The notes below the pieces were generated by a model. That model was not told the origin of the DNA. It ran no database searches and saw only the letters and a list, made by a program, of their open reading frames with translations. The translations under genes and the position numbers were made by a program. 64,000 nucleotides of DNA from the NCBI RefSeq assembly GCF_044704955.1, contig NC_091980.1, positions 132,928,001 through 132,992,000 of the forward strand, in the 5' to 3' direction. Every line of letters starts with the position of its first letter. Within the stretch, counting starts at the first letter, position 1. The stretch is from Pristiophorus japonicus. Its lineage: Eukaryota. Positions 1 through 51,083 of the stretch are shown in pieces.

Positions 1-135
1 GAGTATAAACACCAGCAAAGACCAGTTTGGCCAAATGGCCTGTGTTGTAAATTGGAACCAATTGCTTCAGAATGTACTGGGAACAATCAGTCGAAGTGGA
101 GCTAGACAGAAGGCCACTCCTTTATTGAATCCAAC

Positions 136-901
136 CTTGATATCTGTCAAGATGATCCGTCCTCCACGACAATTCTGGAATTTCATCAGTTTCTCAGCAT
201 GTTCACGTTCCTCATGTGACTGCTCCTTGAAGAACTCCGCAAAGTGACGCAGGGCAACATCATCCCGGTCAAAGTAGAAGGACTATGGAAAAAAATTTTT
301 TTGAGTAATTTGGTATTGCATAGCAGACCCATAACCATGTGTACATTACTTAAATTCAAATTTTACTTTCTTTCAAGGGTTCAAAGTCTTACTGAAACTT
401 TGATGTGCATGGGCAAGGAAACAATGTTTTGATATCCTTACCCAATGAAAAGCCAGAGCACAGCATCAAAGCCTTGATTTTTCAGTGGTGGGAGCAAGGA
501 AGAAAGTGTTGCAGATTGGACCACCCTTGCAGGAAAGAATACTTCCCGACATCCTTCTTAAATGGTCTAGCTTAAATTTTATTATAGACCCTCAGAAAGT
601 CCATGGAATGCATTAGAATGAGGATACAAATTCTGAGTTCCATGTATTCCAAATAAACTTCAACAAAAACTCAAAGGAGAACAAGAAAGTGAGTTAAGAT
701 TCAAGATACTCCGAATAGTTGGGCTGGATACAGCACATAATTTAGTAAATTCACTTTACATAGACTCCATTGTGAAGTGGTCTAAAATGTAAAACTAACC
801 ATAGAGAGATAAACATAGGAGGAATAGAGCTCCATGTTGATCTGCTTGTTAACAGCATCCTCACAGTCCTGGTGGTAGTTCTGACGCACTTGAGAAGCCA
901 T
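136..901 (-). CDS. fth1: Ferritin heavy-type subunit, copy A (exons 1-2 only; exons 3-4 expected beyond window start)
   Basis: Exon 1 (901-800): [34 protein letters not shown], then a GT donor. Exon 2 (282-136), after a ...ccatAG acceptor: [49 protein letters not shown], then a GT donor. Both exons are open and the intron positions match vertebrate ferritin genes. Exact paralog identity (H vs M-like) is uncertain. Confidence 0.93.
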
Positions 902-959
902 CTTGATTCTTTTTCACAAATCAAACCTTTGTTGTAGCAACAAACTAAGATTTAGCCAA

Positions 960-1180
960 CCTCAAACTCCTGTATTTATACTGAGGGATAATCCAGGGTG
1001 TGGCAGCCTCGATAATGAGTGACGGTCCTCAATACGCAATCAGAAGTTGCAGCCTCTCAGAGCACCAATGAACTTAAGGGAGGAGGGGGATGTACTCCCA
1101 GAGCCAGTCAGATTTTTGAAGAATGAGCATCATTGGCTGACAACTCAATGAGGATCCCAATTGTCCTAACTTTCCTCAAA
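960..1180 (-). promoter_or_regulatory. Ferritin copy A proximal promoter (TATAAAT at 974-980, CCAAT at 1132-1136, GGGAGGAGGGG GC-box-like motif)
   Basis: TATA box lies about 75 nt upstream of the ATG. The block is conserved upstream of all four ferritin copies. Confidence 0.7.
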
Positions 1181-18907: not shown

Positions 18908-19261
18908 TTTGATTATTTTTCACAAATCTAAACTTTGTTGAAGCAACAAGTTGAAATTTAACTAACATCAAACTCCTGTATTTAAACTGCTGGATAATCC
19001 AAGGCGTGGCAGCCTAGAGGATGAGTGACAGTCCTCAATACCCAATCAGAAGTTGTTGTCTCTCAGAGCACCAATCAACTAAAGGGAGGAGGGGGATGGA
19101 CTCCCAGAGCCAGTCAGATGTTTGAGCAATGAGCATCATTGGCTGACAACTCAATGAGGATCTCAATTGTCCTAACTTTCCTCAAACACAGTTCAGAAAT
19201 TCAGCATCACAGGTTTAAATGAATCTTCTACTCTTTGGGCTAATCAAGTGTGAAAAACTTA

Positions 19262-28825: not shown

Positions 28826-30630
<1,805 letters not shown>

Positions 30631-31084
30631 CTTGATGAATTTTTTTAAAAAGAAATCGTAACTTTGATGAAACACAAAACTAAGCTTCAGATAAACTCAA
30701 ACTCCTGTATTTATACTGAAGGATAATCCAAGCGAGGCAGCCTCGATAATGAGTGACATTCCTCATTACCCAATCAGAAGTTGCAGCCTGTCAGAGAACC
30801 AATCAAATAAAGGGAGGAGGGGGATGGACTCCCAGAGCCAATCAAATCTTTGAAGAATGAGCATCATTGGCTGACAACTCAATGAGGATCCCAATTATGC
30901 TAACTTTACTCAAACACCAAATATCCAGAATCAAAGATTTAATTGAATCCTCTACTCTTTAGGCTAATCAATTCATAGAATCATAGAATGGTTACAGCAG
31001 AGAAGAGGCCCATGCCGACTCGCAGCTGGGCCTACTGCCCTAATTGGGATGATTAAATCAGCTATCGGAAACATTTAAACCATA

Positions 31085-46769: not shown

Positions 46770-46775
46770 TTTATT
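46770..46775 (-). terminator. Polyadenylation signal AATAAA of ferritin copy D
   Basis: About 135 nt after the stop codon; also present downstream of copies B and C. Confidence 0.7.
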
Positions 46776-46910
46776 TACAGTTATGTTACATTTCACAAGA
46801 GGAAATGTCTCAGATCTTTGTACAAAGTCAGAAGCCATCATTCCCTACAGGACAGGGGTACCCATTATATAAATACATGTACTAAACACAAAGTGCTTGA
46901 TCCAGTCAGT

Positions 46911-48731
<1,821 letters not shown>

Positions 48732-48789
48732 CTTGATTCTTTTTCACAAATCTAACCTTTGTTGTAGCAACAAACTGAGATTTAACCAA

Positions 48790-49010
48790 CCTCAAACTCC
48801 TGTATTTATACTGAGGGATAATCCAGGGTGTGGCAGCCTCGATAATGAGTGACGGTCCTCAATACCCAATCAGAAGTTGCAGCCTCTCAGAGCACCAATC
48901 AACTTAAGGGAGGAGGGGGATGGACTCCCAGAGCCAGTCAGATTTTTGAAGAATGAGCATCATTGGCTGACAACTCAATGAGGATCCCAATTGTCCTAAC
49001 TTTCCTCAAA
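48790..49010 (-). promoter_or_regulatory. Ferritin copy D proximal promoter (TATAAAT at 48804-48810, CCAAT and GC-box-like motifs)
   Basis: Nearly identical to 960-1180 and conserved in all four copies. Confidence 0.7.
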
Positions 49011-51083
49011 CTCAGTTCAAATATCCATAATACAGGTTTAAATGAATCCTCTACTCTTCAGGCTAATCAATTGGGAAAAACATCAACCATAAATGCCCGC
49101 TTTATAAGGGGGAATAAATAAAAGTTCCAAGGGCCCAAGATTCCACATTGCCTTTTTTTGGCGCTATTTAAGATTAACGACCAATTTTTTAAACCAAAGT
49201 AGCTCCAAAAAAAATCCGAAGTGTCGACATTTTTCTGTTTGAATTTGGCGCCGCGCAGAAAGGCCTTAGCTTCTGTGGGTGGAGCTTATTAATAGCGCCT
49301 CAAAACTGAGGCCCCATTCTGCGCATGCCCGAGCATTTGGGTTTCCAGGGTAACGTGTTGTTCTACAGTTTACTCTGCAGCTAACCCGTGCTGATTTTTC
49401 CCGTGCCGACCCGCTGAGATTTCCAGCATTTACCGCTTTTGTTCCAGCATCCAGTATTTTGCTTTTGTATCCATGCTGTACCTGGCCTGGTAGTGTTTTC
49501 ATGCTGAATCTCCCCATCCCAGTCAACGGCTCGCAAATGGCCCCCCGCTGCTGCCTCATCCCTGACCAAATGGCCTCCCGCTTCTGCCCCTATCCCCGGC
49601 TTGGCTTCTACCTTGCCCCCGGGCTTCTTGGGAAGCTAAGTACGGTAACATAGTAGTTATGCTACTGGACGGGTCATCCAGAGGCCTGGACTGATGATCA
49701 AGAGACATGAGTAAAAGTCCCACCATGGCAGCTGCGGAATGTAAATTTCGTTAATCAAATAAAAATCTGGAATAAAAAGCTAGTATCAGTAATGTTGCCC
49801 AGGGAGCTATCAGATTGTTGTAAAAACCCATCTGTTCACTAATGTCCTTAGGGAAGGAAATCTGCCGTCCTCCCCGGTCTGGCCTATATGTGTCTCCAAA
49901 CCCACAGCAATTGACACTTAACTGCCTTCTGAAATGTTCTCGCAAGCCACTCAGTTGTAACAAACTGCTACAAGAAACATCAATAAGAGTAAAACAGGAC
50001 GGACCACCCGGCATCGAACTCGGCACTAGCTTTGGACAAGACAATGGCACACCCAGTCCAGTCGACCCTTCAAAGTCCATCTCACTAACATCTGGGACTT
50101 GTGTCAAAATGGGGAGACCTGTCCCACAGGCTTGTCAAGCAACAGCCTGACATAGTCATACTCACAGAATCATACCTTTCAGTCAATGTCCTAGACTCCT
50201 CCATCACCATCCCTGAGTATGTCCTGTCTCACCGGCAGGACAGACCCACCAGAGGTGGTGGCTCAGCAGAATACAAAAGGGATGAAGTGACCCTGGGATC
50301 CTGAATGTTGACGCCGGACCGCATGAAGTCTCATGAGGTCTGGTCAAAAATGGGCAAGGAAATCTCCTGCTGATTACCATCTACTGCCCTCCCTCAGCTG
50401 ATCAATCAATACTCCTCCATGTTGAAAATCACTTGCAAGAAGCACTGATTGCAGCAATGGATTTCAATGTCCATCAGCAGGAGTGGCTCAGTAGCACCAC
50501 TACTGACCGAGCTGGCTGAGTCCTGAAGGCATAGCTGCCAGTTTGGGCCTGCGACAGGTGGTGAGAGAACCAACAGAAGGGAAAAACCTATTTGACCTTG
50601 TCCTCACCAATCTACATGCCTCAGACGTGTCATCGACAATGCTATCAAGTGCGACTTACTCACCAGCCATGAGGTGGGGTGGAATGGGTCCCAGAACCAT
50701 GCCCAATAGGGTATTCTGTGTGGGATATGATAGAATAGTGGTTATGTTACTGGATAAGTAATCCAGATACTGGGGCTAATGATCCAGAGAAAAGATACCA
50801 CTACAGCAGCTGGGGAATTTAAATTCAGTTAATTAATTCAATAACTCTGGAATAAAAAGCTAGTATCAATGCTGGTGATCATGAAACTTGTCGGATTGTC
50901 ATAAAAATCCAGCTGGTTCACGAATATGCTTCGGAAAAGAAATATGCCATTTGACCCGGTCTGGCCTATATATGACTCCAGGCCTACAGCCAGGTGGTTG
51001 ACTCTTAAATGCCCTCTGAAATGGCCTAGCAAACCACTCAGTTGTACAAGGCGGCTCACCAGCACCTTCATGGGCAATTAGAT

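What the first reader, a model, noticed from the sequence alone, without database searches (positions are those of the whole stretch)
48751..48774. All four ferritin 5'UTRs carry a broken iron-responsive element: a possibly IRP-independent amplified ferritin family
Seen: between TATA and ATG the mRNA-sense sequence is TTGCTACAACAAAGGTTTGA (copy A, 921-940), TTGCTTCAACAAAGTTTAGA (B, 18927-18946), TGTTTCATCAAAGTTACGA (C, about 30656-30674) and TTGCTACAACAAAGGTTAGA (D). Established: the vertebrate ferritin IRE is TTGC-TTCAA-CAGTGN-TTGAA near the cap, and the CAGUG loop is needed for IRP1/2 binding. Copy B matches the canonical TTGCTTCAACAGTGTTT at 15 of 17 positions, differing only in the loop (CAAAG). 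No CAGTG occurs in any of these short UTRs. Inference: the IRE was inactivated before the array expanded, so these ferroxidase-competent ferritins may be translated regardless of iron status, for example in an oocyte, immune or other tissue-specific role.
Basis: partly seen in the sequence, partly recalled or inferred. Interest (0 to 1): 0.8.

Follow-up and report, generated by a model that had tools for sequence, protein, structure and literature searches.

The report
Ferritin array with decayed iron switch
These genes belong to a tandem block of some 300 iron-storage (ferritin) genes whose sampled copies have lost the RNA hairpin that normally lets iron control ferritin translation, so they probably make ferritin in bulk, most likely for eggs, regardless of iron.

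Summary
They belong to an array of about 300 ferritin genes (330 exon-4 matches) over about 5.6 Mb of G000:C4. None of 116 sampled copies has a working IRE. G16 is kept in 2 of 98 main-type UTRs, the IRE stem folds with mean probability 0.004 (controls 0.90 and 0.92), and 18 copies have a UTR with no remnant above chance. Two single-copy ferritins elsewhere keep perfect IREs. The remnant is probably real (copy B 15/19, 11 of 5000 shuffles). Corrections: the stems are broken as well as the loop, and copies B and C are pseudogenes. 55 of 84 fully seen copies are intact, 47 of 55 keep all seven ferroxidase residues, and dN/dS is 0.24. Retrocopies point to a 45-52 nt UTR and germ-line transcription. 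Ferritin arrays are published for sharks, one with ovary-specific expression. The IRE loss was not found in the papers searched. Verdict: an IRP-independent, probably oocyte, ferritin array; IRP binding is untested.

The parts
48751..48769 (-). Decayed IRE core (n06-n24) of copy D: C8 at 48767, loop CAAAGG at 48761-48756 (G16A, U17A), 3 of 5 upper-stem pairs
   Evidence: no Rfam IRE match even at E<=10
48758..48774 (-). Replacement 7-bp hairpin (TTTGTTG-CTA-CAACAAA) close to the inferred cap; it pairs the old IRE 5' arm with the old loop
   Evidence: minimum-energy fold, pairing probability 0.97; retention test
48803..48810 (-). TATA box of copy D; start site inferred about 31 nt downstream, giving a 5' UTR of about 45-50 nt
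   Evidence: retrocopy 5' ends; partly colinear with the C19 ferritin promoter
46911..48731 (-). Ferritin copy D, intact, 179 aa: exons 48731-48630, 48104-47958, 47543-47418, 47075-46911; all seven ferroxidase residues present
   Evidence: Pfam PF00210 hit on exon 2; spliced contigs of related organisms join at these introns
1..980 (-). Ferritin copy A: TATA 980, remnant 921-940, ATG 901, exons 1-2 in the window; the rest lies just outside and the gene is intact (176 aa)
   Evidence: locus L115
17160..18986 (-). Ferritin copy B, pseudogene (CT intron-1 donor, damaged and frameshifted exon 2, stop in exon 4); best-preserved IRE remnant at 18927-18946; lower end approximate
28826..30715 (-). Ferritin copy C, pseudogene (GTG start, stop at codon 7); remnant at 30656-30674 lacks C8
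48202..48220 (-). IRE-shaped 19-mer (C8, five pairs, CAGUGA loop) inside intron 1 of copy D; spliced out, probably chance
   Evidence: below the Rfam gathering score

Best explanation
A vertebrate ferritin paralogue (closer in promoter to the genome's M-type gene on C19 than to the H-type gene on C14) lost its IRE and was amplified into a birth-and-death tandem array of about 300 copies. Shown: no IRE in any sampled copy; shared G16A/U17A loop change and broken stems; one clade; about two thirds of fully seen copies intact; purifying selection; spliced array-type transcripts in related organisms; retrocopies whose 5' ends leave a 45-52 nt UTR. Inferred from established IRE biochemistry: IRP1/2 cannot repress these mRNAs, so output is set by transcription, gene dose and any germ-cell translational control, not by cytosolic iron. 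Inferred from retrocopies and from a published ovary-specific shark cluster: the array supplies large amounts of cytosolic, ferroxidase-active ferritin to growing oocytes or ovary, to stock or buffer iron and limit oxidative damage, while the single-copy C14 and C19 genes keep the ordinary iron-regulated role.
For: Rfam IRE_I finds 6 sites in G000 (82 candidates scored), none on C4; two are the 5' UTRs of intact single-copy ferritins and four are stray copies of the C19 UTR. A 20-nt core pattern with up to 1 mismatch gives 13 sites, none in the array span. In 98 main-type copies C14 is kept in 88, A15 in 94, G16 in 2, U17 in 4, G18 in 81, C8 in 64, and five stem pairs in 1; of the two with G16, one is a misplaced match and one lacks C8 and the stem. 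IRE stem probability is 0.004 on average, above 0.2 in 1 of 95, against 0.90 and 0.92 for the two controls. G16 and U17 make base-specific IRP1 contacts and adenine cannot replace G16 (PMC8466369, passages). 55 of 84 fully seen copies are intact, 47 of 55 have all seven ferroxidase residues, dN/dS is 0.235. The array is one clade. 6 of 9 off-array intronless loci fetched derive from the array; two reach the UTR and begin 44 and 52 nt before the ATG. A 515-nt contig of run X6 is spliced over all four exons with 36 differences in 483. Ovary-specific expression of the largest shark cluster is reported in 10.1101/2024.09.09.611499 (passage).
Against: No binding or translation data. Only 116 of roughly 300 copies were read, chosen by exon-1 pattern or Pfam hit, which favours intact copies. 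The Rfam search scored only its best candidates. The start site is inferred from TATA spacing and two retrocopies, not mapped. The ovary report is for other assemblies, and I did not test orthology of the clusters by synteny. PMC13214024 (passage) reports some copies transcribed in fin and blood. Homology of the remnant is moderate: promoter-UTR alignment to C19 was reached by 7, 27 and 105 of 1000 shuffles for three copies, and the 18 beta-type UTRs show no excess (10.7 against 10.0). In vitro selection has yielded non-canonical loops that bind IRPs (PMC2896125, first part); I did not see that motif list.
Confidence: 0.72

Rival explanations
1. IRE-free array, but for somatic stress or immune use (iron withholding, ferroptosis or ROS defence) under transcriptional control, like the fthl27 expansion of the hadal snailfish.
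For: PMC13214024 reports FTH1b transcripts in fin and blood and proposes a ferroptosis link (passages). fthl27 (14 copies) is high in most snailfish tissues and lowers ROS in cells (PMC10746142, passages). Array-type contigs were laid in all four runs tried, whose tissues are not on record.
Against: The only multi-tissue statement I saw for a shark cluster is ovary-specific. Six inherited retrocopies need germ-line or early-embryo transcripts.
Confidence: 0.14
2. The remnant still binds an IRP weakly, or a shark IRP has a shifted specificity, so some iron control remains.
For: C14, A15 and G18 are kept in most copies; 42 of 98 have at least 4 of 5 stem pairs on paper; non-canonical loops can bind in vitro.
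Against: G16 and U17 are both lost; the fold is out-competed by another hairpin; the genome's regulated ferritins keep the fully canonical IRE, so the IRP target has not drifted; variants that bind measurably in vitro often fail to regulate in vivo.
Confidence: 0.05
3. The motif is not an IRE relic; the array UTR is new A/T-rich sequence that resembles the IRE by chance. The genes are IRE-free either way.
For: Single-copy p values are modest (0.002-0.18); copies are not independent; the motif was found by looking for it; the beta UTR shows no remnant.
Against: The match sits at the expected place after the TATA box; the TATA region, the spacer and the core align colinearly with the C19 gene (7 of 1000 shuffles for L140); one subfamily shares 14 consecutive letters with the C19 IRE 5' arm.
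Confidence: 0.12
4. The array is mostly drifting duplication by-product; the IRE decayed because the genes are barely used.
For: 29 of 84 fully seen copies are broken, 8 of 55 intact ones have a changed ferroxidase residue, and large recent segmental duplications are evident.
Against: dN/dS 0.235 with mean dS 0.148; spliced array-type contigs in three related organisms and many retrocopies; cluster conservation between distant sharks is reported.
Confidence: 0.05

Closest known systems
Shark ferritin (FTH1b / FTH1+FTL) tandem clusters: Sahm et al. 2024 bioRxiv 10.1101/2024.09.09.611499; Yang et al. 2026 PNAS PMC13214024 (passages seen)
   Same: Multi-megabase tandem cluster of near-identical four-exon ferritins, tens to over 150 copies, beside separate single-copy H and L genes; reported in several sharks; ovary-specific expression in Sahm et al.
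   Different: Neither main text mentions the IRE, UTRs or translational control (0 hits for those terms; supplements not seen). The G000 array is as large or larger (about 300 exon-4 matches) and lies inside a 317-Mb contig. Orthology was not tested.
Vertebrate ferritin IRE (Rfam RF00037; features in PMC8466369, PMC2896125)
   Same: 5' arm sequence, position near the cap, C14/A15/G18 usually kept.
   Different: G16 and U17 lost, stems broken, another hairpin forms; no Rfam match.
Snail yolk ferritin (Lymnaea, Biomphalaria; PMC10799875, passages)
   Same: A ferritin without an IRE, alongside IRE-regulated ones, used for egg provisioning (use inferred here).
   Different: Snail yolk ferritin has a signal peptide and a 42-aa insertion and is described as one gene; the array proteins are 172-183 aa cytosolic-type chains in hundreds of copies, with a visible IRE relic.
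Mammalian FTMT and FTHL17 (PMC7760355, passages)
   Same: FTMT is not under IRE/IRP control; FTHL17 is a germ-cell ferritin with six copies in mouse.
   Different: FTMT is an intronless, mitochondria-targeted single gene; FTHL17 lacks ferroxidase activity. The array genes keep introns and the ferroxidase centre.
Hadal snailfish fthl27 expansion (PMC10746142, passages)
   Same: Tandem amplification of a ferritin heavy-like gene in a fish.
   Different: 14 copies, broadly expressed, read as ROS defence; IRE status not given in the passages seen.

Membership tests
Functional IRE (RF00037) | Apical A15-G16-U17 triad | tested here: not met
   A15 94, G16 2, U17 4 of 98 main-type copies; loops CAAAGG (A, D) and CAAAGT (B, C)
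Functional IRE (RF00037) | C14-G18 cross-loop pair | tested here: met
   C14 in 88 and G18 in 81 of 98; both present in all four window copies
Functional IRE (RF00037) | Bulged C8 | tested here: inconclusive
   C at position 8 in 64 of 98 (A, B, D yes; C no), but not bulged in the predicted folds
Functional IRE (RF00037) | Five-pair upper stem and a lower stem | tested here: not met
   Five pairs possible in 1 of 98; stem probability mean 0.004 in 95 copies against 0.90 and 0.92 in controls
Functional IRE (RF00037) | Covariance-model score at or above 34 bits | tested here: not met
   No match in the window at the gathering score or at E<=10 in 48600-49200; controls score 45-46 bits
Functional IRE (RF00037) | IRP binding and iron-dependent translation | not testable with these tools
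   needs EMSA and reporters
Vertebrate H/M-type ferritin | Ferritin domain on a four-exon, three-intron gene | tested here: met
   PF00210 over cut-off on array exons including copies A and D; exons 102/147/126/about 156 nt, same boundaries as C14 and C19
Vertebrate H/M-type ferritin | Seven ferroxidase-centre residues (human H numbering E27, Y34, E61, E62, H65, E107, Q141; numbering recalled) | tested here: met
   all seven in 47 of 55 intact copies, including D
Vertebrate H/M-type ferritin | 24-mer assembly and iron oxidation | not testable with these tools
   not run; needs protein work
Published shark FTH1b tandem cluster | Large tandem cluster forming one clade apart from the single-copy H and L genes | tested here: met
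   array; clade 100/100
Published shark FTH1b tandem cluster | Orthology by flanking-gene synteny or shared tree with named shark genes | not tested
   no named shark sequences were compared; flanking genes of the array were not read
Snail-type yolk ferritin | Signal peptide and 42-aa insertion | tested here: not met
   array proteins align end to end with the cytosolic C14 and C19 chains, 172-184 aa
Snail-type yolk ferritin | No IRE in the 5' UTR | tested here: met
   works-like resemblance only

The most novel reading that the evidence does not exclude
The IRE was not just lost but rebuilt: its 5' arm and loop were turned into a new 6-7 bp hairpin a few bases from the cap that selection keeps in intact copies. 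It would either lock out the IRE fold or serve as a new oocyte-specific translational element for a vertebrate egg-ferritin system of hundreds of genes. Hint: intact copies keep more hairpin energy than random mutation of the consensus predicts (1 of 500 simulations; 27 unique sequences), broken copies do not (156 of 500; 32 sequences), and one subfamily re-forms a perfect hairpin in a shifted register. Against: copies are related, the hairpin is weak (about -2 to -5 kcal/mol; mean z -0.9), presence in intact versus broken copies is not significantly different (31 of 43 against 30 of 52, p 0.20), and template switching can perfect palindromes without selection.
Probability: 0.2. Interest if true: 0.72.

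Novelty: new variant of a known kind. Interest (0 to 1): 0.5.

Why it matters
Shark ferritin expansions are in print and have been tied to ferroptosis and longevity, without regard to how the genes are controlled. Loss of the IRE across the array gives a mechanism: gene dose only raises ferritin if IRP repression is gone, and IRE loss plus reported ovary expression points to egg provisioning, convergent with snail yolk ferritin. It makes a clear test (EMSA, reporters, oocyte proteomics) and offers a natural series of about 300 decayed IREs beside two intact controls in one genome. IRE-free ferritins as such are known, so this is a new variant, not a new kind.

Tried and rejected
Rfam on the window: nothing at gathering scores; three chance matches, none an IRE, at E<=10. 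Intact loop joined to exon 1 by pattern: 3 matches, all off C4, control 1. Canonical loop-plus-stem scan of 642,509 nt of fetched array DNA: 31 hits; the separate scan of 330 nt before each start codon found none with more than 3 of 5 pairs. Six further near-perfect IRE cores elsewhere have no ferritin exon within 1.5 kb; not an IRE-bearing sister of the array as far as seen. Idea that the beta UTR keeps a CUGUGY-type IRE: rejected, the stem does not pair and identity is at shuffle level. Sequencing runs: no RNA holder listed on record, and none holds half the words; this is no evidence on expression. Contig depths cannot rank genes and were not used as evidence; the 5' UTR letters of the relatives did not lay, so the age of the IRE loss across species stays open. 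UTR subfamily labels alpha and delta were mis-assigned by my pattern and were not used; only beta and the array clade were read from that tree. Which single-copy gene is the array's sister is unresolved with two outgroups (71-72% amino-acid identity to both). 3' UTR: a CPE before the poly(A) signal in only 1 of 49 intact copies, so no support for CPEB control. No search of public protein collections was completed, so named relatives were not compared. Earlier scan findings: none returned.

Full report
Observation. The window is G000:C4:132,928,001-132,992,000 of a 5.9-Gb genome. That it is a shark is my inference from genome size, repeats and the gene arrangement; no call names it. The four motifs are exact on the minus strand at 921-940, 18927-18946, 30656-30674 and 48751-48770, each between a TATA box and ferritin exon 1. 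Gene models show that A and D are intact. B has a CT donor, a frameshifted exon 2 and a stop in exon 4; C has a GTG start and a stop at codon 7. So the best-preserved remnant in the window (B) belongs to a pseudogene.

The array. A 17-nt exon-1 pattern has 144 exact matches (control 0), the first 100 all on C4 from 127.83 Mb. Pfam PF00210 shows further copies at 129.9-130.9 Mb that this pattern misses, and one at 133.40 Mb (150 scored of 1035 candidates). A 20-nt exon-4 pattern with up to 1 mismatch has 330 matches (control 0); 97 of the 100 listed lie in the array. About 300 copies over about 5.6 Mb is therefore an estimate, not a count. I modelled 116 distinct copies with exon 1 (one exon-1 fragment, L065, dropped). 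84 had all four exons inside the DNA fetched and 55 of these are intact, four of them passed by hand for small in-frame changes. 47 of 55 keep all seven ferroxidase residues (numbering recalled). Mean pairwise dN is 0.035 and dS 0.148 (ratio 0.235, maximum dS 0.31). The sample favours intact copies. All 55 form one clade, 100/100, on a long stem.

Controls in the same genome. Rfam IRE_I gives 6 matches over the cut-off (82 candidates scored), none on C4. Two are 5' UTRs of intact single-copy ferritins. The one on C14 lies next to a bestrophin gene, like mammalian FTH1-BEST1 (recalled). The one on C19 lies 45 kb from an L-type gene. The other four are inserted copies of the C19 UTR. A core pattern with up to one mismatch gives 13 sites, none in the array span. 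The IRE system is thus intact in this animal and the array is the exception.

Is the motif an IRE relic? Best identity to the 19-nt core is 15, 13, 13 and 12 for B, D, A and C (11, 122, 138 and 885 of 5000 shuffles as good). The 98 main-type copies average 13.0 against 10.4. The TATA region, spacer and core align in order with the C19 promoter (7, 27 and 105 of 1000 shuffles for L140, D and B) but not with C14 (332, 669, 140). The copies are not independent, so this is one moderately significant observation; I put descent from an IRE at about 85%. Eighteen copies (beta type, 10 intact, one clade at 92/66 inside the array) share the TATA region but have a different UTR with no excess similarity (10.7 against 10.0).

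Can it work? By the features in PMC8466369 (passages) and PMC2896125 (first of three parts), no. G16 is kept in 2 of 98 and U17 in 4 of 98; five stem pairs are possible in 1 of 98. The one intact gene with a CAGAG loop lacks C8 and the stem. Folding of cap-to-start sequences gives a mean IRE-stem probability of 0.004 in 95 copies (3 with under 11/19 dropped), above 0.2 in one broken copy, against 0.90 and 0.92 for the controls. In A, B and D the preferred fold is a different 7-bp hairpin that pairs the old 5' arm with the old loop. Since A16 is in 94 of 95 copies, the loss predates the spread of the main-type copies now in this genome. Whether it is as old as the shark clusters (at least 250 million years) is open: dS shows that the present copies are young.

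No rescue from upstream. No sequence with a canonical loop and more than 3 of 5 pairs lies in the 330 nt before any of the 116 start codons. Of 9 intronless off-array loci fetched, 6 derive from the array and 3 from C14. A C14 retrocopy begins 31 nt after its TATA box, which calibrates the method. Two array retrocopies begin 52 and 44 nt before the ATG, at or just inside the predicted start, with no upstream exon. Inherited retrocopies also imply germ-line or early-embryo transcripts (inference).

Expression. No run is on record as RNA for this stretch. In four runs of three related organisms, guessed to be RNA, contigs cover the exons and a repeat in intron 2, and join at the exact introns. 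One 515-nt contig spans all four exons with 36 differences in 483, far closer than the 70-72% of the single-copy genes. So array-type genes are transcribed and spliced in relatives. Tissue, level and UTR were not visible.

Literature. Sahm et al. (10.1101/2024.09.09.611499, passage) report 155 FTL and 179 FTH1 copies in the Greenland shark, clusters syntenic with the white shark, and ovary-specific expression of the largest. Yang et al. (PMC13214024, passages) report 59 FTH1b copies in two tandem clusters, more copies in sharks generally, some expression in fin and blood, and a ferroptosis hypothesis. The terms IRE, iron-responsive, UTR and translational have no hits in the second main text, and iron, UTR and translation none in the first; supplements were not seen. 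Searches (listings) showed no paper on IRE loss in shark ferritins; the library lacks most subscription journals. IRE-free ferritins are known: snail yolk ferritin (PMC10799875, passages) and FTMT (PMC7760355, passages). All five salmon H and M ferritins keep an IRE (PMC4117605, passages). Ferritin mRNA is abundant in vertebrate ovaries (PMC1488847, passages). PMC12230718 (first part), PMC13701976 (passages) and PMC11719527 (passages) added only background.

Mechanism. Shown: IRE absent, relic likely, family intact and selected, transcribed in relatives. Inferred: no IRP repression, so ferritin output follows transcription and gene dose. Inferred with less support: the product is cytosolic, ferroxidase-active ferritin for oocytes or ovary, made ahead of or regardless of the iron signal, while C14 and C19 serve somatic iron control. 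Confidence 0.72. Rivals: somatic stress role 0.14, chance resemblance 0.12 (same functional outcome), residual binding 0.05, drift 0.05. Boldest reading not excluded: the relic was remodelled into a selected cap-proximal hairpin (intact copies 1 of 500 simulations, broken copies 156 of 500; but p 0.20 for presence, weak energies, related copies), probability 0.2.

Verdict. The array type is published; its loss of iron-responsive translation appears not to be, within the searches named. New variant of a known kind; interest 0.5.

Noticed in passing
window 48202-48220 (-), intron 1 of copy D: IRE-shaped 19-mer with CAGUGA loop and five stem pairs; the same intron site recurs in 16 of the 31 hits in fetched array DNA. 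It is intronic, has a weak lower stem and is below the Rfam cut-off; probably one ancestral chance event.
   Followed up: partly
G000:C4:132.30-133.11 Mb: Near-identical copies recur at about 62-64 kb and then about 129 kb spacing, and an inverted block near 128.37-128.69 Mb mirrors itself: recent higher-order segmental duplication, or partly assembly redundancy.
   Followed up: no
L160 (G000:C19:93,189,325 onward, +): An L-type ferritin gene (K at the E27 position) lies head to head, about 42 kb from the IRE-bearing C19 gene; no canonical IRE was found in the 10 kb fetched, 3.3 kb of it upstream.
   Followed up: partly
L002-L005 (C10, C12, C17, C18): Four insertions of 91-100 nt of the C19 ferritin 5' UTR with a perfect IRE and no coding sequence, all ending at the same T-rich spot: short 5'-end retrocopies, an unusual pattern.
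   Followed up: partly
L166 (G000:C11:6.52 Mb): Array-derived retrocopy with intron 1 removed but intron 2 retained: a partly spliced template.
   Followed up: partly
beta-type copies, e.g. L122, L143, L152 (C4:128.98-131.06 Mb): A clade with its own upstream promoter and 5' UTR behind the shared TATA region, a cysteine near residue 26 and long first introns; 10 of 18 intact. It may be expressed differently.
   Followed up: partly
window 48811-49060 (-) and other array promoters: Three or more CCAAT boxes in 95 of 116 promoters against one in each single-copy gene; such clusters are recalled from oocyte-active promoters.
   Followed up: no
3' UTR of copy D (about window 46770-46785, -) and others: A Pumilio-like UGUAHAUA overlaps the AAUAAA signal in 23 of 49 intact copies; may only reflect the usual UGUA before a poly(A) signal.
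   Followed up: partly
window 47028-47034: In runs X1 and X2 nearly all laid depth carries array-type letters, in X6 (same organism as X1) the C19-type letters. Contig depths cannot rank genes, so this is only a lead for sample-dependent switching.
   Followed up: no
window 46916-46930 (-): A G-run in copy D extends the C-terminus by three glycines in frame (179 aa instead of 176); could be a homopolymer assembly error.
   Followed up: no
L180, L188-L190 (C6:3.75, C3:267.2, C4:79.0, C8:71.5 Mb): Perfect or near-perfect IRE cores with no ferritin exon nearby; candidates for other IRE-bearing genes or chance.
   Followed up: partly
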